From Eledone cirrhosa (lineage: Eukaryota), in the NCBI GenBank assembly GCA_964016885.1, contig OZ024747.1, positions 10,416,001 through 10,480,000 of the forward strand: a stretch of DNA of 64,000 nucleotides. The letters run 5' to 3'. Of the stretch, positions 6,083 through 62,075 are shown piece by piece; position 1 is the stretch's first letter, and the number at the start of each line of letters is the position of its first letter. The notes beneath the pieces were generated by a model that had not been told where the DNA came from, searched no databases, and was given only the letters and a program-made list of their open reading frames with translations. Position numbers and translations under genes: made by a program.

Positions 6083-6133
6083 CCAATCAACGAGAAGAAT
6101 TCTGTTATTTTCTGATACTTCACGAAGATGGCG
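6083..6133 (+). promoter_or_regulatory. Putative SGCB proximal promoter: CCAAT box and YY1-like AAGATGGCG over the start codon
   Basis: CCAAT at 6083-6087; AAGATGGCG at 6125-6133. Confidence 0.35.
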
Positions 6134-6142
6134 TCACGTCGG
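6128..6142 (+). CDS. SGCB: Beta-sarcoglycan exon 1 (MASRR)
   Basis: aagATGGCG start context, 15 nt, then GTAAG donor at 6143; phase 0 joins exon 2 in frame. Confidence 0.7.
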
Positions 6143-8981: not shown

Positions 8982-9188
8982 AACCATGCAACCAACCAAC
9001 AGCTGAGCATGCGAGACAAGGCCCAGAGGAAACAGCAGGGCAACCATGAACATCGTTCAAACTTCCGAGCAGGTTTCATCCCGATCAATGAAGAATATCT
9101 CCACAAAACTGGCATTAGGGGAAAGAAGAAGAAATTTCTCTACTGTTTTGTTGGCTTCCTTCTGATGGTTGCTGTAGCCAACATTGTG
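8982..9188 (+). CDS. SGCB: Beta-sarcoglycan exon 2 (cytoplasmic domain and start of TM helix)
   Basis: ttccacag acceptor, GTAAGT donor; SMRDKA..EHRSNFRAGFIPINEEYLHKTGIRGKK resembles vertebrate SGCB SMREKA..EHNSNFKAGYIPIDEDRLHKTGLRGRK. Confidence 0.95.
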
Positions 9189-9332
9189 GTAAGTTTTATC
9201 ACTTTAATTCTTTGTATTATATTGTATGGTCCAGTAACTCCTGATAGAGTCATAAGGGCGCTGTATTGACATATGGCGATTCTTGGGCATTTTAAGCCTG
9301 GCGGAGCCCACCCCTCTCCAGGTTTAGTTCCT

Positions 9333-9484
9333 TAAGAAGGTACTAAAGATTTGTTGCTGTAGCCAACATCGGGATAAGTTTTATCACTTCAGGTTCTTTA
9401 AGAAGGTACTAAAGATTTGTTGCTGTAGCCAACATCGGGATAAGTTTTATCACTTCAGGTTCTTTAAGAAGGTACTAAAGATTT
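9333..9484. repeat. 66-bp tandem duplication containing a copy of the SGCB exon 2 donor region
   Basis: gttgctgtagccaacatcgggataagttttatcactt twice. Confidence 0.85.
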
Positions 9485-9976
9485 AGTTTACTGGCTGAAT
9501 ATCATCATCATCATCATCTTCGTTTAACGTCCATTTTCCACGCTAGCATGGGTTAAAAGGTAATTCATATATATATGATATATATGTAGCAGTGACATGT
9601 GAAAATAATGCTAGGGTAAGGTAATGAAATGTTGTATATTTGGGAGACAATAGCCATATACAATGATACCATCTCTTACAAAACAAAATCAAATACATTC
9701 TCAACAATTATATAACATTGCTCCAAATAGTTTTTTACCATTGTTCTAAACAGTTTTTTCACCATTGTTCTAAAACAGTTTTTTTAAAACTATTATTCTA
9801 AACAGTTTTTATCATTATTCTAAACAGTTTTATACCATTGTTATAAACATTTCTTATCACTGTACTCTATTGCAGGTGACAGCTGTGTCTAGTACTGTAC
9901 TATAGGGGTTAGTTCTAACAGCTGTATCTAGTACTGTACTATAGGGGTTAGTTCTAATCACTGTACTCTATTGCAG

Positions 9977-10162
9977 GTGACCGGTCTACTGATGTCTGTA
10001 TTGAAGCTGACACCATTTGGACTGCAGTCTTTTGAATTTATCCCTGGAGGGAAATTGCTGCGGCTAATTGTGAACGGAATTTTACCAAACATTACCCTGA
10101 CCACTGGACTACTGGGGGGCCGGATGTGGAGTGGAATTAACTTCACAGCTGACCAGTCAACA
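9977..10162 (+). CDS. SGCB: Beta-sarcoglycan exon 3
   Basis: ttgcag/GTAAGT, 186 nt phase 0-0; VTGLLMSVLKLTPFGLQSFEF..GKLLRL..LLGGR aligns with ITLVIWAVIRIGPNGCDSMEF..GLLRF..TVGGR. Confidence 0.9.
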
Positions 10163-10500: not shown

Positions 10501-10531
10501 GTCAATTTTGGTTCTGCAGAAACTTCCATGT
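10501..10531 (+). CDS. SGCB: Beta-sarcoglycan exon 4 (31 nt, VNFGSAETSM)
   Basis: tttctttatttccag acceptor, GTAAGT donor; phase 0-1 bridges exon 3 (phase 0) to exon 5 (phase 1). Confidence 0.85.
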
Positions 10532-11684: not shown

Positions 11685-11842
11685 TGTCCGTAGATGAAAG
11701 TCAAAGTTTGTTCACCACGGATGCTTTTGATGTTATTGATGCTGACAGTAATGAGCTGATCTTTTCAACTGATCCAAACAAGGAATGGTCATTTCCAAAA
11801 ATGCCAGAGAATCTGCAGACAGATAAAGTAGAAACAACCAAT
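11685..11842 (+). CDS. SGCB: Beta-sarcoglycan exon 5
   Basis: cttcccccag/GTAAGT; LSVDESQSLFTT..ELIFSTD..EWSFP..ENLQTDK resembles LSVENNKTSITS..NILFSTD..EFHLP..KSLNVQK. Confidence 0.9.
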
Positions 11843-12956: not shown

Positions 12957-13404
12957 ATATGTATAAATGTATATATAATATAATATATATATATATCTTT
13001 GTTTTGGAACCGTAACTCCTGGTGGGGTTGTAGAAGCACTGTAGTGGTCTACAGAATTTCTCAGGTAGGGAAAACTTGGCAGAGCCGATCCCCTCTCCAG
13101 GTATGAAGACAGCTGATATCTTCCAGAGAAGGAGAGAAAATGATAGTTAGAAAGTGGTACTTTTATAGAGGTACTTTTTTATCCTGGAATGAATGAAAGT
13201 CAAATTAGACCTCGATGAGATTTGAACTCAGAGTACTGAAAGAAATACCACAAGGCATTCCATCTGATGTTCTAATGACTCAGCTAATTCATTGCCTTAT
13301 TACACACACACACATACACATACATACATGTATATATGTGTATATGTATGTGTGTGTGCATATATATATATATATACAAACATAGGCCATCAATTTGGCA
13401 GAGT

Positions 13405-13806
13405 TGTCTCTCTCTCCCCTCCCTCACCTCTCCTCTCTCCCTCACCTCCTCTCCTCTCTTCTCCTCACCCCCTCACCTCTCACCTCCTCTCTCTCTCCTC
13501 ATCCTCTCCCCCTCACTCTCTCCTCATCCTCTCCCCCTCTCTATCTCTCTCCCCTCCTCTCCTCTCTCCCTCACCTCCTCTCCTCTCTCCCTCACCTCCT
13601 CTCCTCTCCTCTCTCCCTCCTCTCCTCTCCTCTCTCCCTCACCTCCTCTCCTCTCCTCTCTCCCTCACCTCCTCTCCTCTCCTCTCTCCCTCACCTCCTC
13701 TCCTCTCCTCTCTTCTCTCCCTCATCCTCTCCCCCTCCCCTCTCCCTCACCTCCTCATCCTCTCCCCCCTCACCTCCTCCTCTCTATCTCTCTCACCTCC
13801 TCTCTA
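13405..13806. repeat. CT-rich low-complexity polypyrimidine tract
   Basis: (ctctccctcacctcctct)-type units. Confidence 0.9.
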
Positions 13807-13841
13807 TGGCTCTCATTATAGAAGAAATCAGTTGTGTTTAG

Positions 13842-14402
13842 ACCAGGAGAGAAGAAGGACAGGCTTCAGCAGAGTATAAAGTGCTCAAGACACACATTAT
13901 GCCAAAAGATCTTCCCTACAACTCTTCCTCACATTACGAGATCCCGTCTGTCTCAACACCCTCCCCACAACTCCACGAGGAATTAGGGATCACACACCAT
14001 ATGTCAAAACAGCCTGACTACACCCCATCCAGGAATTACATGTTCCCGTCTGTTCCAATATTCTCCTCACAACTCAACGAGGATGTAGGGGTCACCCGCC
14101 ATTTCCCAGATCAGCCTCCCCACAACGCTTGCAGGCGTTACAGGATCCTGCGTGTCCCATCATCCTCTCTACAGCACTACAAGAAAGAAGGGATCCCACT
14201 GGTTATGTCAGAAGAGGTTTGCTACAATTCTACCGGTGAAGAAAGGTTCACATATGTCCCAATACTCTACGAAGAACCCCACAAGGAATTAAGAGTGAGA
14301 CACCATATGCCAGAACAGCCTACCTACAACTCTTCCACACATTACAAGCTCCCGTCTGTTCCACCATCCTCCTCCTCCTCCTCCTCCTCACAACAACATT
14401 AA
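13842..14402 (+). CDS. Unknown repeat ORF (5 x 34 aa) in SGCB intron 5; candidate alternative terminal exon or nested gene
   Basis: 186 open codons after tgtgtttag; five 102-nt units in register; ATTAAA overlaps the stop. Confidence 0.5.
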   Translation, partial: TRREEGQASAEYKVLKTHIMPKDLPYNSSSHYEIPSVSTPSPQLHEELGITHHMSKQPDYTPSRNYMFPSVPIFSSQLNEDVGVTRHFPDQPPHNACRRYRILRVPSSSLQHYKKEGIPLVMSEEVCYNSTGEERFTYVPILYEEPHKELRVRHHMPEQPTYNSSTHYKLPSVPPSSSSSSSSQQH

Positions 14403-14528
14403 AAGTTACAGATTCATACACAGTATGTCACGTCTTCCCTACAACTCCACACATGAACAACATTTAATTAGACAAATCATAAATGTCCATTTTCTTGTTA
14501 TTTTCTCTCCATTGTCTGAACAAAACAG

Positions 14529-14672
14529 ATGAAAAGTCGAACAAAATGGAATGACATTGTCCTAGAATCTTTCTCTAAACTTGTCGTAAAAGGAGATGAA
14601 AGTGTCAGCACGGAAGATTACATCGACAAAGTCTATATCCAAGCCAGCAAAGGGATCTCCCTGAATGCCAAG
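14529..14672 (+). CDS. SGCB: Beta-sarcoglycan exon 6
   Basis: aacag/GTAAAG, 144 nt phase 0-0; NDIVLESFSKLVVKGDESV resembles SDLNIKVDGRAIVRGNEGV. Confidence 0.85.
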
Positions 14673-15065
14673 GTAAAGTACTTTGTTATTGTCTTTAACC
14701 CTTTCTGTTTCATTGTCAACAGCCTGGGTGTGTGCACAGTTGATAGAATAGCTGTGTGAATGAGTTCTGGGTGTGTGCACAGTTGATAGAATAGCCATAT
14801 AACTGAGTCTTTTGTAATGAATGAGTACTGGGTGTGTTCTCAATATGTAGAAAAGGCATAGGCATAAACTCCATACAATGTACACAATGTAAATCTTGGA
14901 ATAACGAGTGGAATGACAGGAAGGGAAAACTTTGCTTGTAGAAGATGCACAGGAGAGATCAAGAGGAAGACTGCTAATGATATAAACCTTTTCCTGTCAC
15001 AGGAAGGATCCATAGATGTGGTTGATAGCTTTTGCAAGCATGGAAAAATGGACGCTAAATGATGA

Positions 15066-15226: not shown

Positions 15227-15430
15227 AAAGGTAACCTGACATTTGATGCCAGTAATGGAGACATAATAATTAACAAGAAGACACTGCGTCCTATCAAAGT
15301 TGACAATAATGGAGTAAACTCAACAGGCGAGACGTTCATACTGTGTATCTGTACCCCAAGTGGCAAACTGTTTGCTATACCAAACACCTTAAATTGTCTT
15401 TCACCAAAGGATGCATGCAACGATGCATAG
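15227..15430 (+). CDS. SGCB: Beta-sarcoglycan exon 7 (terminal, C-terminal Cys cluster)
   Basis: T-rich tract ending ttctag; FILCICTPSGKLFAIPNTLNCLSPKDACNDA* shows the sarcoglycan LCxC..G.LF..C..C motif; TAG at 15428-15430. Confidence 0.92.
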   Translation, partial: KGNLTFDASNGDIIINKKTLRPIKVDNNGVNSTGETFILCICTPSGKLFAIPNTLNCLSPKDACNDA

Positions 15431-17772: not shown

Positions 17773-18002
17773 TCAATTCATCCATGGAATTAATCGAGTT
17801 GGTCGAGGATCACTTAGTGGCATTGCTTGTAGGACTTGGTCGAGTAACTGTAGAGGTCGGTGGAGCTGCACTTCAATCCAGCATGGCGTCTCCTTGATGC
17901 TGGCACGTGGGTAGTCAGGGCCCCAGCCTTTCACAAAACTTAATCGCAGGATGCACAGGCGACGTAGATCATCAACCCCTATCCCAGCCACAGCAGACAA
18001 AC
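17773..18002 (-). CDS. SMAD4: SMAD4 last exon (MH2 C-terminus)
   Basis: [57 protein letters not shown], near-identical to SMAD4/Medea; no C-terminal SSxS, so a Co-Smad; tttcag acceptor. Confidence 0.97.
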
Positions 18003-18019
18003 CTGAAACATTAACAATA

Positions 18020-18237
18020 GTTTCTGATTTAGGCACAAGGCCAACAATTTGAGGGGAGGGGAGAGTCAAATTAAATTAAATCGACCCCAGTGTATTACTG
18101 GTATTTTATTTTATTAATCAGTAAGGATGAAATGTAAAGCTAACCTTGGTGGGATTTGAACTCAGACCGTAAAGGGCCATAACTCTATGCTGCAAAGCAT
18201 GTTGTCCAACACTACTGATACTGCCAATCCACCGCCC
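18020..18237 (-). mobile_element. SINE family A about 20 nt from the SMAD4 last-exon acceptor; another copy at 18581-18765
   Basis: Family consensus match. Confidence 0.75.
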
Positions 18238-19705
18238 ATACATAATAATAACAATAATATGAATGGACTAGTAACTCCTGATGGAATCATAGGGGGCGCT
18301 GTAGTGACATATGACATGTCTTAGGCTCTGTCAGATTTAAAAAACTATCTCCACTCCATGTCTGAACACAACTGATTTCTACCAGAGAAAGGGTGATAGG
18401 AAGTGAGAAAGAGATTCTAGAGGAAGAATTGACCCCAGTAGTGAACTGGTATATTTTTTATTGGCCTAAGTTGATCTCAAAGCACAGAAGCTTGAATCAA
18501 TACCGCAAAGCATCCTATCTGATGTTCTAACAACTCGGCCAATTTGCTGCCTAGTGACGATGATGATGATGATAATAATAATTGTTTCTACTTTTTGGCA
18601 CAAGGTCAGGAATTATTCCAGTGTATTACTGGTACTTTATTTTATCGACCCTGTAAGGATGAAAGGCAAAGTTAACCACGGCGGGATTTGAACTCAAACC
18701 ATAAAGGGCCGTAACTATATGTTACAAAGCATGGTGTCTGACCCTCTACCAATACTGTCAATCCAACGTGATGATGATAATGGATTCTGATTTAGGCTCG
18801 AGGTTTAACCCTGTGATGGTCTGGCGGCCTGTCCAGGGGGAGGTCTTATACTCTCAGTCTCCTAGTGCCACAGAAACCAGGATAAGTACCAGCCTGATGA
18901 ACCTTTGGACTTGAGACAAACATTAAACTTCTTGTGACATCTCACATGTATAAGAAACGAATCTACTTATGAATCATCATCATCATCATCATTTCATTTT
19001 ACGTCCGCTTTTTCCTGCTTGCAAGGGTGGGACGGGAACTGATTCTGGCTTGATTTCTACAGCTGGATGCCCTTCCTAACACCAACTTCATTTACAGTGA
19101 GTGCTGGGTGCTTTTTTGCCGTGGCACCTACACGACCACTTTGCAGTGGAATGATAGGGACCCCAGTCCCTATCATCTCATTTCTACAGCTGAGTAAACT
19201 GGAGCAATGTGAAATAAAGTGTCTTGCTCAAGGAAACAATACATCACCCAGTCTGAGAATTGAACTCACAACCTTTCGATTGCAAGGCCAATGCTCTAAC
19301 CACTAAGCCATGTGCCTCCATATCTAAACTAATATTTATAGTCTCTACCTTCAACTTGTCACAAGTTTTACAACATCACATCAACTGGGACATTAGTTCA
19401 AACTTTCGTTTGATTGACAATTAATCAATGTAAAAAACTTGCCAATGTGTCTGTGTGGGGAAGCGGGCTAACAAAGTCCATTATACCCATTCAATGAGTT
19501 ATTTGGTTTGTTGATTATTCAACTAAGTTAATTTACAACAGATTAGAAGCACTGAACAGTATTTTCCGGAGTATCATTATCAATAATATTAATAAATGGA
19601 AAATATCTTTATAAAACCATATTTATTTATACGTATAATAAAATAAATATGGTTTTATAAAGATATTTTCCATTTATTAATATTATTGATATATATATAT
19701 CTTAC

Positions 19706-19729
19706 ATAGATGAGCCAGTGAGGGGGCTT
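19706..19729 (-). CDS. SMAD4: Candidate 24-nt SMAD4 microexon (EAPSLAHL)
   Basis: tgtatag acceptor, GTAAGA donor, phase 1-1, open; 62-nt upstream intron. Confidence 0.45.
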
Positions 19730-19791
19730 CTATACAGGTAGACTCAATGTCCTGTGAAACAGTGAAGTGTGTGTATGCAGTTGTTACTTAC

Positions 19792-19930
19792 CTACAGCAG
19801 GAGCAATACCACCAACAGAAGCAGGTCCTGGCACATTACCTGCAACTGCAGCTGCTTGAGCTGCTGCTGCAGCCTGGGCAGTGGCTGCCTGTTGTTGCAT
19901 TTGACAATGACACTGTCGGATATCAAATAC
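19792..19930 (-). CDS. SMAD4: SMAD4 MH2 exon (Ala/Gln-rich insert)
   Basis: [46 protein letters not shown]; 139 nt; tttacag/GTAAGT. Confidence 0.97.
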
Positions 19931-20024
19931 CTGTAAATAGAAAATAGAGACTCAGGTCACTAACTGTGTGTGTGTATGTGTTTATCTATGGCAAGAGAGA
20001 TATGATATAATAGCTTGCATGAGA

Positions 20025-20232
20025 TATGGTCCAATACATCTGGTGTGATACAGCTCAACACATCTGGTGTGGCACAGCTCAATACATCTGGTGTGATACA
20101 GCTCAATACATCTGGTGTGATATGGTCCAATACATCTGGTGTGATACAGTCCAATACATCTGGTGTGATACAGCTCAACACATCTGGTGTGATACAGTCC
20201 AATACATCTGGTGTGATATGGTCCAATACATC
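20025..20232. repeat. 24-bp minisatellite
   Basis: Unit gatacagctcaatacatctggtgt, about 8.5 copies. Confidence 0.9.
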
Positions 20233-20339
20233 ACACAGGATACAACATGGTACACCACATTATGTTTAACATATTGTATTACAGGGAAGACAGAACACAG
20301 TGTAGTAAGATATAATGAGGTAAGAGAGAGAGTACTTAC

Positions 20340-20508
20340 TTTGATATACGCTACGGGATATATCTTGTGGACAGCATCACCAGGAGCGCGACCAGCCTCC
20401 CTGTCGAGGTAATATGATTGCACAAACACACTATGATCACTCAGACACTTAATCCAGACGTCACCTTCACCCCGACAATCCAGTTGTACACCCTTCCCTA
20501 TATGTAAC
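20340..20508 (-). CDS. SMAD4: SMAD4 MH2 exon
   Basis: [56 protein letters not shown]; 169 nt; gacag/GTAAGT. Confidence 0.97.
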
Positions 20509-20580
20509 CTGTCAATAGAAACAGAGAGAGATATGTTAATGTTACAGATAAAGAGTCACAGTTACCTATATGTAACCTGT

Positions 20581-20920
20581 GAAGGTGCATGGCTTAGTTG
20601 TGAGAGTGTTGGGCTTGCAATTGAGAGGTTGTGAGTTCAATTCCTGGACTAGGCAGTGTGTGTGTTCTTGAGCAAGACACTTTATTTCAGGTTGTTCCAG
20701 TTTACTCAGCTGTAGAAATGAGTTGCAACATCACTGGTGCCAAGCTGTATCAGCCATTGCCTTTTCTTTGGACAACATTGGTCCCATGGAGAGAGGGGAA
20801 GCTGGTATGTATGAGTGACTGCTTGTCTTCTACAACCTTACCCAGACCTGCACTTCAGAGGGGAACTATCTAGGTACAAATCCCATGGCCATTTGTGACC
20901 AAAGAGGAGGGTTTTTTTTA
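20581..20920 (+). mobile_element. tRNA-derived SINE family B; related heads at 19176-19321 (-) and 21530-21810 (+, with a V-domain-like cctgtgatggactgg body also seen at about 18810)
   Basis: A box tggcttagttg, B box gagttcaattcc, then ttcttgagcaagacactttatttc. Confidence 0.75.
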
Positions 20921-21236
20921 CCCGTAACCATTTTGGTACATAGCTGACCATAAATATTTTTCCAAAACAATATTTTTTATTTAAATCTAAAAACTTTAAA
21001 ACAAGAGATTTGTCATCCTAGAATTGGAGCAGTTTGGGGCTGGATTCATATCTTTATTTCATTGTATTCCTTGAAATTCTTCATTTTTTTCAAAATTAAT
21101 TAAAACATAAAGACTGTGTGTTTCATTAGAAATATGGTAATGAAAGTGTTAAACAAAATATTAATTTAAACATGTAGACTGTGTTTAATTAGAAATATGG
21201 GAAATGATAAAGGCACTTCTTTACATTTTTACTTAC

Positions 21237-21420
21237 CGAGCACGTTCTGAAGCTTCAGTCCGATGTACATTGGACAACTGACCGAGGCAAAAGCGGTCAA
21301 TACTTGATGGATCAGTGTAGCCATCTACTTTAACACTTGGACATCCTGAAGGAACTTTAAAGGTTTCACCAACTTGTTGGTCCAATTCAAAGTAGGTTAT
21401 GGTACACCAAAATTCTGGAG
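21237..21420 (-). CDS. SMAD4: SMAD4 first MH2 exon
   Basis: [61 protein letters not shown]; 184 nt; gacag/GTAAGT. Confidence 0.97.
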
Positions 21421-21874
21421 CTGTCGTTTGATGGAGAACGAAAAGAATTTATCAGATTAATTAGAAAAAACTGAATATAAAGACTGGTTGTTGACTGTGT
21501 TTTATTATGTTCTTTGTTTTTAAAATATGGGAGGCATGTGGCCTAGTGGTAAGGGTGTTGGTCTTATGATCATCATGTTGTAGGTTCAATTCCTAGACTG
21601 GATTGTGTGTTGTGTTCTTGAGCAAAACACTTCATTCCACATAGCTCCAGTATACTCAGCTGAGAATGAGTACCAGCTATAGCTGGGGGTTTAATCCTGT
21701 GATGGACTGGAGTCCAGTCTAAGGGAGAGTCTTGTACTTTCAGTCGCCATGGAAACCGGGATAAGCACCAGCCTGGTGAGCTTCCGGGCTTGAGAGAGAC
21801 TTTAGACTTTTAAAATAGGAAGTGACGTCTAAATTAGTATTCTTCACCTCAAACTAACTTACTCTGCTCCTCTG

Positions 21875-49500: not shown

Positions 49501-50344
49501 TGCTAGCAGGGAAACTGATATGAACACATACACCCCCCCCCCCCCTTCAAGTATCTCGGAGCTGGGTTCACGAGTGGTGAAAGGCAGGAGGCTGAATTAA
49601 GTGCAACAATTGCAGAAGCTGGTGCAGTGATGTACCAGCTTCAGTGTTCAGTAACCATACATACAACCACATACATATATATACTCACACACACAGTCAC
49701 ATACATACGCAAACACGTACATACATACATACACTCAATCACATACATATACACACACAACCACATACATACACAAACACGTACATATATATACATACTC
49801 ACACACACAGCCACATACATACATACTCACACATACACAGCCACATATATACATACTCACACACACACAGCCACACACATTACAAAGGAGATGGAATCAT
49901 GTCACGGTTTAATGATTGTCAACATTCCTATAAGTCTTTATTGATCCCTAGAAGTATGTATGATTCTTAGCTGTCTGTATTGATTCCTAGATGCCTGTAG
50001 ATGGAATTCCATATTTAAATATTGATTGATTGGACAGATGAATGGAAATAGGTCATGGTTTAGTAATGTTTAAATAGGTCATGGCACAATAAAGACTAAT
50101 AGGTAACTGGGTCATGTTTACAACTAGAGGGGGGGGGGGGCAACTACATCAATTAATGAGTCTAGCAAAAGTAGATGTAAAAAAATATTCTTGTTTAACT
50201 CTTATATATTGTTGATATAGAAGTGACCAGGATGTAACTCCTTTATGAAGACACCAATGTATTACTGGTAAGTAATTTATTGCTTACTAACCTCACCTAT
50301 CAAGAGTGGATGGCTGTAGTAAAAACAGATCAAAAAATATGCAA

Positions 50345-53300
50345 GTGGAAGGAAGCTGTAGTTGAGGTAGACCAAGGAAGATGACAGTGGAAGGAAGCTG
50401 CAGTTGAGATAGACCAAGGAAGATGATAGTGGAAGGAAGCTGCAGTAGAGGTAGACCAAGGAAGATGACAGTGGAAGGAAGCTACAGTAGAGGTAGACCA
50501 AGGAAGCTGCAGTAGAGGTAGACCAAGGAAGATGACAGTGGAAGGAAGCTGCAGTAGAGGTAGACCAAGGAAGATGACAGTGGAAGGAAGCTGCAGTAGA
50601 GGTAGACCAAGGAAGATGACAGTGGAAGGAAGCTACAGTAGAGGTAGACCTAGGAAGATGACAGGGGAAGGAAGCTGCAGTAGAGGTAGACCAAGGAAGC
50701 TACAGTAGAGGTAGACCAAGGAAGATGACAGTGGAAGGAAGCTACAGTAGAGGTAGACCTAGGAAGATGACAGTGGAAGGAAGCTACAGTAGAGGTAGAC
50801 CAAGGAAGATGACGGTGGAAGGAAGCTGCAGTTGAGGTAGACCAAGGAAGATGACAGTGGAAGGAAGCTACAGTTGAGGTAGACCAAGGAAGCTACAGTA
50901 GAGGTAGACCAAGGAAGATGACAGTGGAAGGAAGCTGCAGTAGAGGTAGACCAAGGAAGATGACAGTGGAAGGAAGCTGCAGTAGAGGTAGACCAAGGAA
51001 GATGACAGTGGAAGAAAGCTGCAGTAGAGGTAGACCAAGGAAGATGACAGTGGAAGGAAGCTGCAGTAGAGGTAGACCAAGGAAGATGACAGTGGAAGGA
51101 AGCTGCAGTAGAGGTAGACCAAGGAAGCTACAGTAGAGGTAGACCAAGGAAGATGACAGTGGAAGGAAGCTACAGTAGAGGTAGACCAAGGAAGATGACA
51201 GTGGAAGGAAGCTGCAGTTGAGGTAGACCAAGGAAGATGACAGTGGAAGGAAGCTACAGTAGAGGTAGACCAAGGAAGATGACAGTGGAAGGAAGCTACA
51301 GTTGAGGTAGACCTAGGAAGATGACAGTGGAAGGAAGCTACAGTTGAGGTAGACCAAGGAAGCTGCAGTAGAGGTAGACCAAGGAAGATGACAGTGGAAG
51401 GAAGCTACAGTTGAGGTAGACCAAGGAAGCTGCAGTAGAGGTAGACCAAGGAAGATGACAGTGGAAGGAAGCTGCAGTAGAGGTAGACCAAGGAAGATGA
51501 CAGTGGAAGGAAGCTACAGTTGAGGTAGACCTAGGAAGATGACAGTGGAAGGAAGCTACAGTTGAGGTAGACCAAGGAAGATGACAGTGGAAGGAAGCTA
51601 CAGTTGAGGTAGACCAAGGAAGATGACAGTGGAAGGAAGCTACAGTAGAGGTAGACCAAGGAAGATGACAGTGGAAGGAAGCTACAGTTGAGGTAGACCA
51701 AGGAAGCTGCAGTAGAGGTAGACCAAGGAAGATGACAGTGGAAGGAAGCTACAGTTGAGGTAGACCTAGGAAGATGACAGTGGAAGGAAGCTACAGTAGA
51801 GGTAGACCAAGGAAGATGACAGTGGAAGGAAGCTGCAGTAGAGGTAGACCAAGGAAGATGACAGTGGAAGGAAGCTACAGTTGAGGTAGACCAAGGAAGC
51901 TGCAGTAGAGGTAGACCAAGGAAGATGACAGTGGAAGGAAGTTGCAGTAGAGGTAGACCAAGGAAGATGACAGTGGAAGGAAGCTACAGTTGAGGTAGAC
52001 CAAGGAAGATGACAGTGGAAGGAAGCTACAGTAGAGGTAGACCAAGGAAGATGACAGTGGAAGGAAGCTACAGTTGAGGTAGACCAAGGAAGCTGCAGTA
52101 GAGGTAGACCAAGGAAGATGACAGTGGAAGGAAGCTACAGTTGAGATAGACCAAGGAAGCTGCAGTAGAGGTAGACCAAGGAAGATGACAGTGGAAGGAA
52201 GCTACAGTTGAGGTAGACCAAGGAAGCTGCAGTAGAGGTAGACCAAGGAAGATGACAGTGGAAGGAAGCTACAGTTGAGGTAGACCTAGGAAGATGACAG
52301 TGGAAGGAAGCTACAGTAGAGGTAGACCAAGGAAGATGACAGTGGAAGGAAGCTACAGTGGAGGTAGACCAAGGAAGATGACAGTGGAAGGAAGCTACAG
52401 TTGAGGTAGACCAAGGAAGCTGCAGTAGAGGTAGACCAAGGAAGATGACAGTGGAAGGAAGCTACAGTAGAGGTAGACCAAGGAAGATGACAGTGGAAGG
52501 AAGCTACAGTAGAGGTAGACCAAGGAAGATGACAGTGGAAGGAAGCTACAGTTGAGGTAGACCAAGGAAGATGACAGTGGAAGGAAGCTACAGTTGAGGT
52601 AGACCAAGGAAGATGACAGTGGAAGGAAGCTACAGTAGAGGTAGACCAAGGAAGATGACAGTGGAAGGAAGCTACAGTTGAGGTAGACCAAGGAAGATGA
52701 CAGTGGAAGGAAGCTACAGTTGAGGTAGACCAAGGAAGATGACAGTGGAAGGAAGCTACAGTTGAGGTAGACCAAGGAAGATGACAGTGGAAGGAAGCTA
52801 CAGTGGAGGTAGACCAAGGAAGATGACAGTGGAAGGAAGCTGCAGTAGAGGTAGACCAAGGAAGATGACAGTGGAAGGAAGCTACAGTTGAGGTAGACCA
52901 AGGAAGATGACAGTGGAAGGAAGCTACAGTTGAGGTAGACCAAGGAAGATGACAGTGGAAGGAAGCTACAGTAGAGGTAGACCAAGGAAGATGACAGTGG
53001 AAGGAAGCTACAGTTGAGGTAGACCAAGGATGATGACAGTGGAAGGAAGCTACAGTTGAGGTAGACCAAGGAAGATGACAGTGGAAGGAAGCTACAGTTG
53101 AGGTAGACCAAGGAAGATGACAGTGGAAGGAAGCTACAGTGGAGGTAGACCAAGGAAGATGACAGTGGAAGGAAGCTGCAGTAGAGGTAGACCAAGGAAG
53201 ATGACAGTGGAAGGAAGCTACAGTTGAGGTAGACCAAGGAAGATGACAGTGGAAGGAAGCTACAGTTGAGGTAGACCAAGGAAGATGACAGTGGAAGGAA

Positions 53301-54677
53301 GCTACAGTTGAGGTAGACCAAGGAAGCTGCAGTAGAGGTAGACCAAGGAAGATGACAGTGGAAGGAAGCTGCAGTAGAGGTAGACCAAGGAAGATGACAG
53401 TGGAGGTAGACCAAGGAAGATGACAGTGGAGGTAGACCAAGGAAGCTACAGTGGAGGTAGACCAAGGAAGCTGCAGTAGAGGTAGACCAAGGAAGATGAC
53501 AGTGGAAGGAAGCTACAGTTGAGGTAGACCAAGGAAGCTGCAGTAGAGGTAGACCAAGGAAGCTACAGTTGAGGTAGACCAAGGAAGATGATAGTGGAAG
53601 GAAGCTACAGTAGAGGTAGACCAAGGAAATGACAGTGGAAGGAAGCTGCAGTAGAGGTAGACCAAGGAAGATGACAGTGGAAGGAAGCTACAGTAGAGGT
53701 AGACCAAGGAAATGACAGTGGAAGGAAGCTGCAGTAGAGGTAGACAAAGGAAGATGACAGTGGAAGGAAGCTGCAGTAGAGGTAGACCAAGGAAGATGAC
53801 AGTGGAAGGAAGCTGCAGTAGAGGTAGACCAAGGAAAATGACAGTGGAAGGAAGCTACAGTAGAGGTAGACCAAGGAAGATGACAGTGGAAGGAAGCTAC
53901 AGTAGAGGTAGACAAAGGAAGATGACAGTGGAAGGAAGCTGCAGTAGAGGTAGACCAAGGAAGATGACAGTGGAAGGAAGCTACAGTTGAGGTAGACCAA
54001 GGAAGATGATAGTGGAAGGAAGCTACAGTAGAAGTAGACCAAGGAAATGACAGTGGAAGGAAGCTGCAGTAGAGGTAGACCAAGGAAGATGACAGTGGAA
54101 GGAAGCTACAGTAGAGGTAGACCAAGGAAATGACAGTGGAAGGAAGCTGCAGTAGAGGTAGACAAAGGAAGATGACAGTGGAAGGAAGCTGCAGTAGAGG
54201 TAGACCAAGGAAGATGACAGTGGAAGGAAGCTGCAGTAGAGGTAGACCAAGGAAAATGACAGTGGAAGGAAGCTACAGTAGAGGTAGACCAAGGAAGATG
54301 ACAGTGGAAGGAAGCTACAGTAGAGGTAGACAAAGGAAGATGACAGTGGAAGGAAGCTGCAGTAGAGGTAGACCAAGGAAGATGACAGTGGAAGGAAGCT
54401 ACAGTTGAGGTAGACCAAGGAAGATGACAGAGGAAGGAAGCTACAGTTGAGGTAGACCAAGGAAGATGACAGTGGAAGGAAGCTACAGTTGAGGTAGACC
54501 AAGGAAGATGACAGTGGAAGGAAGCTGCAGTAGAGGTAGACCAAGGAAGATGACAGTGGAAGGAAGCTACAGTTGAGGTAGACCAAGGAAGATGACAGTG
54601 GAAGGAAGCTACAGTTGAGGTAGACCTAGGAAGATGACAGTGGAAGGAAGCTACAGTAGAGGTAGACCAAGGAAGAC
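50345..54677. repeat. 42-bp (with 25-bp deletion variant) minisatellite of 4.3 kb, LINE-derived
   Basis: Unit gtggaaggaagctrcagtwgaggtagaccaaggaagatgaca. Confidence 0.97.
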
Positions 54678-59140: not shown

Positions 59141-59937
59141 CTGTGCATATATAAAAACAATGTGGGAAAAAAAAACAATAATAATAATGAGGGTAATGAT
59201 GAAGATGATGGTGAAAAAAAAGATTTTAATAATAATAATAATGATTTCTTTATATAATAATAATAATAGTGATAATAATAATAATAATGATAATAAATAT
59301 TACTGAAAACAGAGTTAGGTACCAAAAATAAGGAAACATGTATTGATGTTCTGGCTGTCCCAGTAATAGTTGTAATAATCATATTGGAAGTCAATTAGTA
59401 ACATGAGACAAGAGCACAAAGAAATAATGACTGCATTTAAAATAGACTGCCTAAAATCATACATACAAAGAAATATATTTACCACAGATACAGGGAGGTA
59501 GGGGTCTGCTGCAACTACAAGAGAAACCACTATAAATAGCTACAAAATATGAGCACGCAACAACTATTTTATGTCTTCAAGGAACGCAACAAATATAGAA
59601 AAAAATATCTGAAGTAAAGGACATTTCTGAAGAGGGGCTAGGAAAGTGTAAAGGACATTATTAAACAAACTAAAAATAGGACTACAAAATATCTTGCTAA
59701 GACGTTTGCAGCAAATGTCTCTAGATGGCCAATATCTTACAACAGGGAACACGGCAGAAGAAGGGGATAAGAAGAGAACTGAAAAATCCCTAGATGGCCA
59801 ATATCTTACAACAGGGAACACAGCAGAAGAAGAGGATAAGAAGAGAATTGAAAACTGAAATTGAAGGATATTTTGGTTTCCCCAGAGCAGAAGACCAAAG
59901 CCATCAGAAACAATCAAAACTATACAATAAAGATTAT

Positions 59938-61217
59938 ATATGTAGAATATATTGAAGGATATAACATATGTAGAATATATTGAAGGATATAACATATGTA
60001 GAATATATTGAAGGATATAACATATGTAGAATATATTGAAGGATATAACATATGTAGAATATATTGAAGGATATAACATATGTAGAATATATTGAAGGAT
60101 ATAACATGTGTAGAATATATTGAAGGATATAACATGTGTAGAATATATTGAAGGATATAACATGTGTAGAATATATTGAAGGATATAACATATGTAGAAT
60201 ATATTGAAGGATATAACATATGTAGAATATATTGAAGGATATAACATATGTAGAATATATTGAAGGATATAACATGTGTAGAATATATTGAAGGATATAA
60301 CATATGTAGAATATATTGAAGGATATAACATATGTAGAATATATTGAAGGATATAACATATGTAGAATATATTGAAGGATATAACATATGTAGAATATAT
60401 TGAAGGATATAACATATGTAGAATATATTGAAGGATATAACATATGTAGAATATATTGAAGGATATAACATGTGTAGAATATATTGAAGGATATAACATG
60501 TGTAGAATATATTGAAGGATATAACATGTGTAGAATATATTGAAGGATATAACATGTGTAGAATATATTGAAGGATATAACATATGTAGAATATATTGAA
60601 GGATATAACATATGTAGAATATATTGAAGGATATAACATATGTAGAATATATTGAAGGATATAACATGTGTAGAATATATTGAAGGATATAACATGTGTA
60701 GAATATATTGAAGGATATAACATATGTAGAATATATTGAAGGATATAACATATGTAGAATATATTGAAGGATATAACATATGTAGAATATATTGAAGGAT
60801 ATAACATATGTAGAATATATTGAAGGATATAACATATGTAGAATATATTGAAGGATATAACATATGTAGAATATATTGAAGGATATAACATATGTAGAAT
60901 ATATTGAAGGATATAACATATGTAGAATATATTGAAGGATATAACATATGTAGAATATATTGAAGGATATAACATGTGTAGAATATATTGAAGGATATAA
61001 CATATGTAGAATATATTGAAGGATATAACATGTGTAGAATATATTGAAGGATATAACATATGTAGAATATATTGAAGGATATAACATATGTAGAATATAT
61101 TGAAGGATATAACATATGTAGAATATATTGAAGGATATAACATATGTAGAATATATTGAAGGATATAACATATGTAGAATATATTGAAGGATATAACATA
61201 TGTAGAATATATTGAAG
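59938..61217. repeat. 28-bp minisatellite, about 46 copies
   Basis: Unit tatgtagaatatattgaaggatataaca with one a/g variant site. Confidence 0.97.
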
Positions 61218-62075
61218 TTACGAAGACATAATCAACCATATTGTTGTTTCTGCCAAATCTTAACCAAAACGGAATTATTACCATTATTATTTAACACCTG
61301 TTTTTTCATGTTGGGATAGGTTGAGGGGTTGTCTTGGACCAAATCAATACTTAAAGTTACTGTCCTCTCAGTGAAAGGGTCAGGAGCCCATCCATATCAA
61401 CAACCACTATACAGAGTATAATAGGTGCATTTTATCATGGTACCACACTAGAAAGGTGCCATGTGCTTCACACAATCCTTTGTTTGCCATAGTTTCTATA
61501 GCTGGATGCCCTACCTAACACCAACCACTTTACAGAGTGTACATGGTGCATTTTATCATGGCACCAGTTCTAGAGAGATTGTCAGCCATTTACTTGACTG
61601 AAGAGATCTCTATACCCTATTGAGGCAGGAGAGCAGGAGTACCTTGTCCCAAGACAGATGTGCTTACAGGGAGAGAATATGAGAGGGGAAAGGATGACAA
61701 ATATGATGTCATAGATGTATGTCAAGTGTGATGGGATTTAATGGGGGATGTAGGGAGGGATCTAGGATAGAGTGAGGAGTGGGGGTACAATGATGATGAG
61801 AACAATTACTAATGATTACCAGAGTTGCCTAGGATACATAGTTATGGAATATATATACACACATACATACATATATATGCATAAAACACACAAACATACA
61901 CGCATATATGTAAATCTCAATACCATCCTCTCTATTTTATGTCCCCTTTCCATGCTGGTATGATATATAAGTTATTTATAGCTAGTTGAAAATAGGGGAC
62001 ATTTCAGAAGTATGAATGTCAGCCCCATCTGATAGGCCCTTAAGAATGTTAAAGATCTTTTTACACAATTCAGAT

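What the first reader, a model, noticed from the sequence alone, without database searches (positions are those of the whole stretch)
13842..14402. Hidden 5 x 34-aa repeat ORF in SGCB intron 5 with a diversifying-selection-like pattern; splices in frame as an alternative C-terminus
Seen: five 102-nt units starting at 13890, 13992, 14094, 14196 and 14298 (THIMPKDLPYNSSSHYEIPSV.., THHMSKQPDYTPSRNYMFPSV.., TRHFPDQPPHNACRRYRILRV.., PLVMSEEVCYNSTGEERFTYV.., RHHMPEQPTYNSSTHYKLPSV..). They are heavily diverged yet in register, with no frameshift and no stop for 186 codons; the other frames I checked are closed. By hand tally, invariant columns are 5/34 at codon position 1, 16/34 at position 2 and 17/34 at position 3 (columns 26-34 from four units), with only about 6 synonymous columns. 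Neutral decay would hit positions equally and purifying selection would favour position 3. A 400-nt pyrimidine tract and tgtgtttag precede 13842 in phase 0, matching the phase-0 donor of SGCB exon 5, and ATTAAA overlaps the stop. Inference: a beta-sarcoglycan isoform whose extracellular Cys-cluster tail is replaced by a hypervariable repeat domain, or a nested orphan gene born from a ~51-nt minisatellite dimer.
Basis: partly seen in the sequence, partly recalled or inferred. Interest (0 to 1): 0.82.

Follow-up and report, generated by a model that had tools for sequence, protein, structure and literature searches.

The report
SINE-born fast-evolving repeat exon in sarcoglycan
Inside an intron of the beta-sarcoglycan gene of a likely octopod, the end of a common dispersed repeat has been multiplied into five stop-free 34-codon units whose amino-acid-changing sites differ about three times faster than silent ones, likely a rarely used alternative last exon that would swap the outer tip of this membrane protein for a fast-evolving one.

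Summary
In detail: five in-register 102-nt units, 186 open codons, invariant columns 5/16/17 of 34. dN/dS between units is 3.2 (about 1.7-7.5; p 0.0003), rare in neutral simulations and robust to dropping any unit or modelling sequence context. New here: the acceptor, the 16-codon leader and both halves of the unit derive from the 3' part of an abundant dispersed repeat, likely a tRNA-type SINE (E 6e-24). Its dispersed copies show no codon-position bias (pN/pS 0.68 against 1.88 in the array), so the signal is not column mutability. One run that behaves as RNA holds the canonical exon 5-6-7 transcript and two unspliced contigs over the repeat (13876-14061, 14127-14482); no junction to exon 5 was seen, and RNA passes the proposed poly(A) point. 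An upstream AG (13822) looks like the better acceptor and gives another frame. No paralogue or homologue was found. Best reading (0.45): SINE exonization, tandem amplification and diversifying selection in a minor terminal exon of beta-sarcoglycan. Coding selection in this frame about 0.8; splicing to SGCB is unproven.

The parts
6128..6142 (+). SGCB coding exon 1 (MASRR)
   Evidence: same start in Octopus proteins P0007/P0008
8982..9188 (+). SGCB exon 2 (cytoplasmic part and start of transmembrane helix)
   Evidence: 86% identical to O. bimaculoides beta-sarcoglycan
9977..10162 (+). SGCB exon 3
10501..10531 (+). SGCB exon 4
11685..11842 (+). SGCB exon 5, ends at a phase-0 donor
   Evidence: its last 30 nt are the loose end joined to 14529 in run X4
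13407..13815 (+). CT-rich tract, no AG from 13403 to 13819; its right end is the pyrimidine-rich part of the dispersed repeat, likely expanded
13774..13941 (+). Relic of a dispersed repeat (likely 3' part of a tRNA-type SINE, sense to SGCB); covers both candidate acceptors, the leader and the first half of unit 1
   Evidence: 72.1 bits, E 6e-24 against a profile of 47 other copies; B-box-like motif upstream in 23 of 46 copies
13820..13821 (+). Competing acceptor AG (exon start 13822); first AG after the tract; derived in this copy; from exon 5 it gives a 54-aa tail in the +1 frame
   Evidence: GG in 35 of 47 copies
13840..13841 (+). Proposed acceptor AG (exon start 13842), ancestral in the repeat family; use not shown
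   Evidence: AG in 30 of 47 copies
13842..13889 (+). 16-codon leader, repeat-derived; differences from the family majority 5/6/1 by codon position
   Evidence: p 0.06
13890..13991 (+). Unit 1 (34 codons; first in-frame ATG at 13899; N-S-S sequon)
13992..14093 (+). Unit 2
14094..14195 (+). Unit 3
14196..14297 (+). Unit 4 (most diverged; N-S-T sequon; possible phase-0 donor after 14294)
14298..14402 (+). Unit 5 with in-frame TCC (poly-Ser) expansion, N-S-S sequon and TAA stop; ATTAAA at 14398-14403
14403..14455 (+). Rest of unit 5 and a partial sixth unit after the stop, shifted by one base and with two 3-nt gaps
   Evidence: read by eye from the sequence and alignment
13876..14061 (.). Unspliced contig in run X4, no mismatches
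   Evidence: record 25
14127..14482 (.). Unspliced contig in run X4, no mismatches; ends inside CATAAA (14478)
   Evidence: record 26
14529..14672 (+). SGCB exon 6
15227..15430 (+). SGCB exon 7, cysteine cluster and stop
   Evidence: (GT..AG joint)

Best explanation
The stretch is a five-unit coding-type repeat built from the end of a dispersed, likely SINE-type element in intron 5 of beta-sarcoglycan, and it is likely a minor alternative last exon that would replace the protein's cysteine-bearing outer tip with a rapidly diversified tail. Steps: (1) shown: an element copy lies at 13774-13941 and supplies an ancestral AG at 13840-41; (2) shown by homology: its last ~52 nt were doubled into a 102-nt unit and amplified to at least six units; (3) shown statistically: in the frame that starts at 13842, replacement sites diverged about three times faster than silent sites, without stops or frameshifts up to 14400; (4) inferred: exon 5 is spliced in phase 0 to 13842 in a minority of transcripts or in an unsampled tissue, with a 3' end before exon 6; (5) inferred: the 385-aa product keeps the cytoplasmic part, the membrane helix and the proximal beta-helix strands (199 aa) and shows a Ser/Pro/Thr-rich (32%), probably unfolded and glycosylated tail outside the cell; (6) inferred, weakest: the tail is a surface recognition or decoy region in a molecular conflict (pathogen, parasite or gamete), which would explain divergence between units.
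For: dN/dS 3.2-3.3, p 0.0003-0.0005, 2.5-3.6 after dropping any one unit (IQ-TREE LRT agrees). Neutral simulation: pN/pS >= 1.78 in 1-2 of 10,000; best of six frames 0.0005-0.005; open frame 0.013-0.050. Rate ratio 2.6-2.7 (p about 0.001) after allowing 12 mutation types, CpG and both neighbours. Dispersed copies: differences 161/140/137 by codon position, pN/pS 0.68; array first halves 1.88, reached by 0.13% of 3,000 random sets of five copies; array pS 0.21 is below and pN 0.40 above the dispersed values 0.39 and 0.27. 35 of 42 dispersed copies have a stop in the matching frame. The leader upstream of the first ATG shows the same third-position sparing, 5/6/1 (p 0.06), the stretch upstream of the acceptor does not, 9/3/6: this favours entry by splicing at 13842. 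The first frameshift lies just after the stop. Run X4 holds 542 nt of 13876-14482 in two exact contigs. Sequons at the same column in units 1, 4, 5. Exon 5/6 boundary maps to residue 207/208 of 318 in solved beta-sarcoglycan 9c3c_b.
Against: In X4 the long contig joins exon 5 directly to exon 6 and exon 6 to exon 7, so the main transcript skips the repeat; contig depth figures are 102.5 against 2.6 and 3.5, though the tool warns that contig depth cannot rank parts of a gene. The two contigs are unspliced and of unknown strand, so pre-mRNA, intron retention or DNA carry-over fit as well. RNA runs 60 nt past the proposed end near 14420. AG 13820-21 is first after the tract, has a branch-like motif 26 nt upstream, is new in this copy and would divert splicing to the +1 frame. 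The +1 frame has dN/dS 0.46 (p 0.003-0.005) and no new stops (0 against 3.5 expected); one of two regression set-ups did not separate the frames (p 0.07 against 0.13). A uniform dN/dS model predicts equal divergence at positions 1 and 2 (0.40, 0.41), observed 0.49 and 0.31. The indel argument depends on the control: about 10 frameshifts expected from 18 interspersed pairs, but 34 of 43 family copies keep frame length over the 51-nt segment, which gives about 0.12 for nine half-units by hand. The control copies are closer to the family majority than this copy is (89% against 73% upstream of the acceptor). No repeat-tailed isoform among the 5 beta-sarcoglycans found or the cluster members. In vertebrates the C-terminal disulfide loops stabilise the trimer (PMC12871233) and nonsense variants lose surface expression (PMC10266784), so such an isoform may not assemble. 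The finding was picked from a large scan, so the p-values carry a look-elsewhere cost.
Confidence: 0.45

Rival explanations
1. Nested same-strand orphan gene: a separate short transcript (own start in or near the CT tract, or a non-coding exon spliced to 13822) is translated from ATG 13899 into a 167-aa repeat protein without signal peptide, under the same diversifying selection.
For: No ATG lies between 13822 and 13899, and 13899 is in the selected frame; the RNA-type contigs span 13876-14482 without a splice joint; the better-looking acceptor would then be harmless.
Against: The leader upstream of the ATG shows the same codon bias (5/6/1, p 0.06); the ATG is inherited from the repeat family; the open frame starts exactly at a phase-matched AG.
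Confidence: 0.15
2. Non-coding SINE-derived minisatellite; the codon pattern is a chance extreme picked out by the scan, and the RNA cover is retained intron or pre-mRNA.
For: Repeat-derived minisatellites are common (PMC9659126, passages); 50 stop-free frames of 120 aa or more in this window; no junction seen, contigs unspliced; no homologue.
Against: Neutral simulations matched ratio and open frames jointly in 0 of 6,000; dispersed copies lack the bias; context models do not remove it.
Confidence: 0.15
3. Dead or dying exon: once coding and positively selected, now truncated (stop in unit 5, frame-shifted unit 6) and silenced by the new AG at 13820-21.
For: Homology continues past the stop with in-frame 3-nt gaps and one frameshift; the competing AG is derived.
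Against: No stop or frameshift in 186 codons; the DNA contigs of X1-X3 show only two replacement variants in the leader (one contig) and none in the units.
Confidence: 0.12
4. Cassette exon 13842-14294 (151 codons) spliced on to exon 6 in frame, inserting four units into the middle of the ectodomain and keeping the cysteine cluster.
For: Phase-0 donor-like site after 14294, matching 6 of 9 consensus positions; exon 6 begins in phase 0.
Against: The X4 contig 14127-14482 reads through the site unspliced; unit 5 beyond it is also open and biased (3/2/1).
Confidence: 0.08
5. The constrained frame is +1 under purifying selection: entry at 13822 or at the TAG in column 32, which would serve as stop of one unit and acceptor of the next, giving a set of alternative 33-54-aa tails; the high dN/dS in frame 0 is its shadow.
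For: dN/dS 0.46 in +1; no new stops in +1; 13822 leads into +1.
Against: Joint simulation fit 0.0005 (dN/dS 0.46) or 0 of 6,000 (0.3) against 0.0135 for frame 0, whose dN/dS was fitted on the same data; leaves frame 0 open only 3% of the time; the internal acceptors are C-rich and have an AG 7 nt upstream.
Confidence: 0.05

Closest known systems
SINE exonization (Alu, MIR, B1 exons; PMC2394776, passages read)
   Same: An intronic short repeat supplies a cryptic 3' splice site in frame with the host gene; the original isoform stays dominant.
   Different: Here the element is in sense orientation (that paper reports an antisense tendency), its end is tandemly amplified, and the units show dN/dS near 3; use of the splice site is not shown.
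TE-derived minisatellites (PMC9659126, passages read)
   Same: Tandem array made from part of a non-autonomous element.
   Different: The passages read describe non-coding arrays; this one is diverged to 49-80% identity yet in register and open.
Tandem-repeat proteins with positively selected units, e.g. Pot II protease inhibitors (PMC2259423, abstract read); PRDM9 zinc-finger arrays and abalone VERL (recalled, no call)
   Same: In-frame tandem units with replacement rates above silent rates, some columns conserved (Met4, Tyr10, Asn11, Tyr16, Val21, Pro22).
   Different: No cysteine scaffold or known fold, no family hit, single copy, born from non-coding repeat DNA, target unknown.
Beta-sarcoglycan of Octopus, Argonauta and mammals (P0007, P0008, P0002; PDB 9c3c_b, 8yt8_B)
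   Same: Host gene product 314 aa, 256 and 257 of 314 residues identical to the two Octopus proteins, 224 to Argonauta.
   Different: None of the retrieved proteins has a repeat tail.

Membership tests
Beta-sarcoglycan (host gene) | Sarcoglycan_1 domain and best similarity to beta subunits | tested here: met
   3 of 5 host exons scanned hit PF04790 below the curated cut-off as fragments; 82% identity to P0007, which hits PF04790 at 1.8e-38 and PDB beta-sarcoglycan at 5e-30
Beta-sarcoglycan (host gene) | Spliced transcript ending in the C-terminal cysteine cluster | tested here: met
   exon 5-6-7 contig in X4; exon 7 translation
tRNA-derived SINE (source element) | Short, dispersed, high-copy, non-coding repeat | tested here: met
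   806 candidates, 40 of 40 scored matched; 12 hits in 264 kb; about 220 columns
tRNA-derived SINE (source element) | Pol III internal promoter at the head | tested here: inconclusive
   B-box-like motif (recalled consensus) upstream in 23 of 46 copies, downstream in 3; none before the array copy; A box not tested
tRNA-derived SINE (source element) | Target-site duplications, tail shared with a partner LINE, identity with a named octopus SINE family | not tested
   no repeat library on hand; octopus tRNA-SINEs are cited in PMC9223172 (passage read)
TE-derived exon (exonization) | Exon and splice site lie within the element | tested here: met
TE-derived exon (exonization) | Splice junction to the host exon in transcripts | tested here: inconclusive
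   one RNA-type run, contigs only, exon 5 outside the laid stretch; no loose end at 13842
Alternative terminal exon | Own poly(A) site before the next exon | tested here: inconclusive
   ATTAAA 14398 and CATAAA 14478 present; contig passes the first and ends in the second; contigs cannot show ends
Positively selected tandem-repeat protein domain | In-frame units with dN/dS above 1 | tested here: met
Positively selected tandem-repeat protein domain | Conserved folded scaffold or known repeat family | tested here: inconclusive
   no Pfam hit, no atlas hit, single-sequence model pLDDT 39.7
Positively selected tandem-repeat protein domain | Translated protein with a binding partner | not testable with these tools
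   needs proteomics, ribosome profiling, binding assays

The most novel reading that the evidence does not exclude
A SINE end was turned, by splice-site capture, tandem amplification and strong diversifying selection between units, into a brand-new hypervariable extracellular domain that is mounted on beta-sarcoglycan, giving a core muscle-scaffold protein a second, recognition-type isoform in one octopod lineage.
Probability: 0.3. Interest if true: 0.82.

Novelty: new variant of a known kind. Interest (0 to 1): 0.64.

Why it matters
If true it is a complete, datable record of a protein domain arising from non-coding mobile DNA: the ancestral sequence is available as many dispersed copies, so each step (splice capture, doubling, amplification, selection) can be measured against a neutral outgroup. 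Positive selection on a repeat-born exon is direct evidence that such exons can become adaptive rather than tolerated noise. It would also point to an unexpected conflict-driven role for a sarcoglycan in cephalopods. One RT-PCR decides the main question.

Tried and rejected
Expression: no RNA holder listed by record (4 runs, 1 study); X4 is taken as RNA only because its contig has exon joints. In X4 there is no cover at 13816-13875, 14062-14126, 14483-14528 and no loose end at 13842 or 13822; with contigs of depth near 3 this shows nothing either way. The laid stretch began after the CT tract, so the exon 5 junction was not directly testable. Paralogues: DNA search found only the locus and three poly-TCC matches; protein searches of G000 found the locus and one stop-ridden E 0.5 match, single unit only the locus. 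Homologues: none among 725 longer and 113 near-length candidates; exact sequences absent; one hit in 1.84 billion representatives, P0006, rejected as summed weak matches (25.8 bits each) to a 61-aa near-identical repeat; no atlas hit; no viral relative; the metagenome scan with P0007 gave one 27%-identity locus, L008, not examined further. Rfam gave only sub-threshold matches, 19 of 20 on simple repeats; no tRNA. Structure prediction uninformative, no fold search run. Antisense coding rejected: 8-11 stops per frame. Hidden compensating frameshifts rejected. CpG or neighbour-dependent mutability rejected. TPR identity (34-aa period) considered from memory and not supported by Pfam. Earlier scan notes gave nothing relevant. 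Rows dropped: 3 tandem pairs of 21 in the indel control; unit 5 columns 24-34 in all statistics; 4 of 47 family copies lacking the 51-nt segment. Literature: nine searches found no report of a repeat exon in a mollusc sarcoglycan or of a positively selected SINE-derived coding array; the library lacks most subscription papers and no supplements were read.

Full report
HOST GENE. Reading 6-15.5 kb on the + strand gives seven coding exons with GT-AG boundaries (6128-6142, 8982-9188, 9977-10162, 10501-10531, 11685-11842, 14529-14672, 15227-15430) that make a 314-aa protein. It is identical at 256 and 257 of 314 residues to Octopus beta-sarcoglycans P0007 and P0008 and at 224 to the Argonauta protein, so the animal is likely an octopod (inference). 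P0007 matches solved beta-sarcoglycan 9c3c_b at 5e-30, and the exon 5/6 boundary falls at residue 207/208 of 318. The repeat lies at the 3' end of intron 5, with its stop 126 nt before exon 6.

OBSERVATION. Five 102-nt units in register, an open frame of 186 codons from 13842, and the invariant-column counts 5, 16 and 17 of 34 are all as reported. Pairwise identity is 49-80% in DNA and 15-52% in protein. Gaps improve only 1 of 10 pairs, slightly. Unit 5 carries an in-frame TCC expansion, so its columns 24-34 were left out of all statistics. Homology continues after the stop into a partial sixth unit that is shifted by one base. The locus is single-copy as an array.

IS THE CODON PATTERN MORE THAN CHANCE? 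A codon model gives dN/dS 3.2-3.3 (profile interval about 1.7-7.5), p 0.0003-0.0005, and 2.5-3.6 with any unit removed (one search gives the same likelihood ratios). Neutral simulation on the fitted tree reached the observed pN/pS of 1.78 in 1-2 of 10,000 runs (20,000 runs per setting), 0.05-0.5% when the best of six frames was taken (4,000 runs), and left the frame open in 1.3-5.0%. Counting only single-base codon changes, 6 of 49 are silent against 27% expected (p 0.012). Allowing 12 mutation types, CpG and both neighbours leaves a ratio of 2.6-2.7. One misfit remains: position 1 is more diverged than position 2 (0.49, 0.31), whereas a uniform model predicts 0.40 and 0.41. Lack of frameshifts is strong evidence by one control (655 mismatches, 67 frame-breaking gaps in 18 interspersed pairs; about 10 expected for 97 changes; 2 pairs had no gap) and weak by another (34 of 43 family copies keep frame length over 51 nt).

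THE +1 FRAME. Because frames overlap, the +1 frame shows dN/dS 0.46 and has no stops other than those at column 32 and one behind it. I tested whether it is the selected frame. Simulated joint fit was 0.0135 for frame 0 at dN/dS 3.2 (fitted on these data), 0.004 at 2, 0.0002 for stop avoidance alone, 0.0005 and 0 for purifying selection in +1, and 0 of 6,000 for neutrality. A regression favoured frame 0 in one set-up (p 0.004 against 0.45) and did not separate the frames in the other (0.07 against 0.13). Frame 0 is preferred but the rival is not excluded.

ORIGIN (new). The leader and first half of each unit align with four other places in the window. One of these finds 806 candidates genome-wide, 40 of 40 scored matching at 72-87% apart from itself. 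A profile of 47 copies, built with the array masked, matches 13774-13941 at 72 bits (E 6e-24), and its last ~52 positions match, weakly, the second half of unit 1 and the first halves of units 2, 3 and 5 (E 0.001-0.005 within an 831-nt target). A B-box-like motif lies upstream on the same strand in 23 of 46 copies and downstream in 3: likely a tRNA-type SINE in sense orientation; such SINEs are known from octopus (PMC9223172, passage read). The family is not named here.

THE FAMILY AS A NEUTRAL CONTROL. In the columns homologous to the unit's first half, dispersed copies differ 161/140/137 by codon position, with pN/pS 0.68; the array gives 1.88, reached by 0.13% of 3,000 random five-copy sets. 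The units are closer to each other than dispersed copies at silent sites (0.21 against 0.39) and further apart at replacement sites (0.40 against 0.27). Column variability in the family does not predict that in the array (rho 0.22, p 0.11). 35 of 42 copies have a stop in the matching frame. Caveat: the control copies are mostly top search hits and lie closer to the family majority than this copy does even upstream of the acceptor (89% against 73%).

HOW IS IT ENTERED? The AG at 13840-41 is ancestral (30 of 47 copies) and in phase with exon 5; the leader before the first ATG differs from the family at 5/6/1 positions (p 0.06) while the stretch before the acceptor does not (9/3/6). That favours translation through the leader, hence splicing at 13842. 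Against: AG 13820-21 is the first after a 417-nt AG-free stretch, is new in this copy, and from exon 5 gives a 54-aa tail in +1; acceptors at 13825, 13832 and 13847 give 53, 15 and 10 aa.

RNA. Four runs of one study hold the stretch. X1-X3 cover introns evenly and behave as DNA. X4 has a 1,537-nt contig whose loose end before 14529 is the end of exon 5 and which skips intron 6 at GT..AG: it behaves as RNA and confirms the canonical model. X4 also has two exact, unspliced contigs at 13876-14061 and 14127-14482 (depth figures 2.6 and 3.5; 102.5 for the spliced contig; contig depth cannot rank parts of a gene). So the repeat is present in an RNA-type library, the main transcript skips it, strand and ends are unknown, and at least some molecules pass 14420. 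One DNA contig shows two other letters in the leader (13866, 13876), both amino-acid changing by my reading, and none in the units.

LIKELY PRODUCT. Exons 1-5 plus the repeat would give 385 aa. Beta-, gamma- and delta-sarcoglycan co-fold into a beta-helix whose C-terminal disulfide loops stabilise the trimer (PMC12871233, passages read); nonsense variants of human SGCB score as non-functional for surface delivery (PMC10266784, passages read). The isoform would keep the grip and proximal arm and lose the head, so it may assemble poorly or act apart from the complex. The tail is 32% Ser/Thr/Pro with N-x-S/T at the same column in units 1, 4 and 5; a single-sequence model is uninformative (pLDDT 39.7). 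A surface recognition or decoy role is my inference from dN/dS above 1 and topology; no partner is known.

COMPARISON AND NOVELTY. Each ingredient has precedent: SINE exonization with low inclusion (PMC2394776, passages), TE-derived minisatellites (PMC9659126, passages), positive selection in tandem protein units (PMC2259423, abstract). Sarcoglycan is confined to cnidarians and bilaterians (PMC4582122, passages). Nine library searches showed no report of the combination or of such an exon in a mollusc. I file it as a new variant of a known kind. It works like an exapted TE exon; membership awaits a junction read.

VERDICT. Coding-type selection in the 13842 frame, now or in the past: about 0.8. 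Live alternative last exon of beta-sarcoglycan: 0.45. Nested gene 0.15, non-coding 0.15, dead exon 0.12, cassette 0.08, +1 frame 0.05. Interest 0.64.

Noticed in passing
window 17780-21439, - strand: A Smad gene (MH2 domain, Pfam E 1.6e-17 for 21239-21439; Smad4-like by recall) converges tail to tail on SGCB; the X4 contig from 16070 onward could be either gene's 3' UTR.
   Followed up: partly
window 14489-14499: An 11-nt deletion allele in all three DNA runs lies in the pyrimidine tract of exon 6, whose acceptor is itself purine-rich next to the AG; it could shift the balance between isoforms.
   Followed up: no
window 9327-9484 and 9879-9970: Tandem copies that duplicate the end and donor of exon 2 (66-nt period) and the acceptor of exon 3 (39-nt period region), leaving decoy splice sites in intron 2.
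   Followed up: no
window 50344-54676 and 59564-61290: Large minisatellites with stop-free frames of 400-555 aa on the - strand and no Pfam hit for the two tested; probably shadow frames.
   Followed up: partly
window 14839-15035: A very high-copy repeat fragment in intron 6 (summed DNA depth above 20,000).
   Followed up: no
L008:438-764: A metagenome contig with 27% identity to residues 171-293 of P0007; not examined.
   Followed up: no
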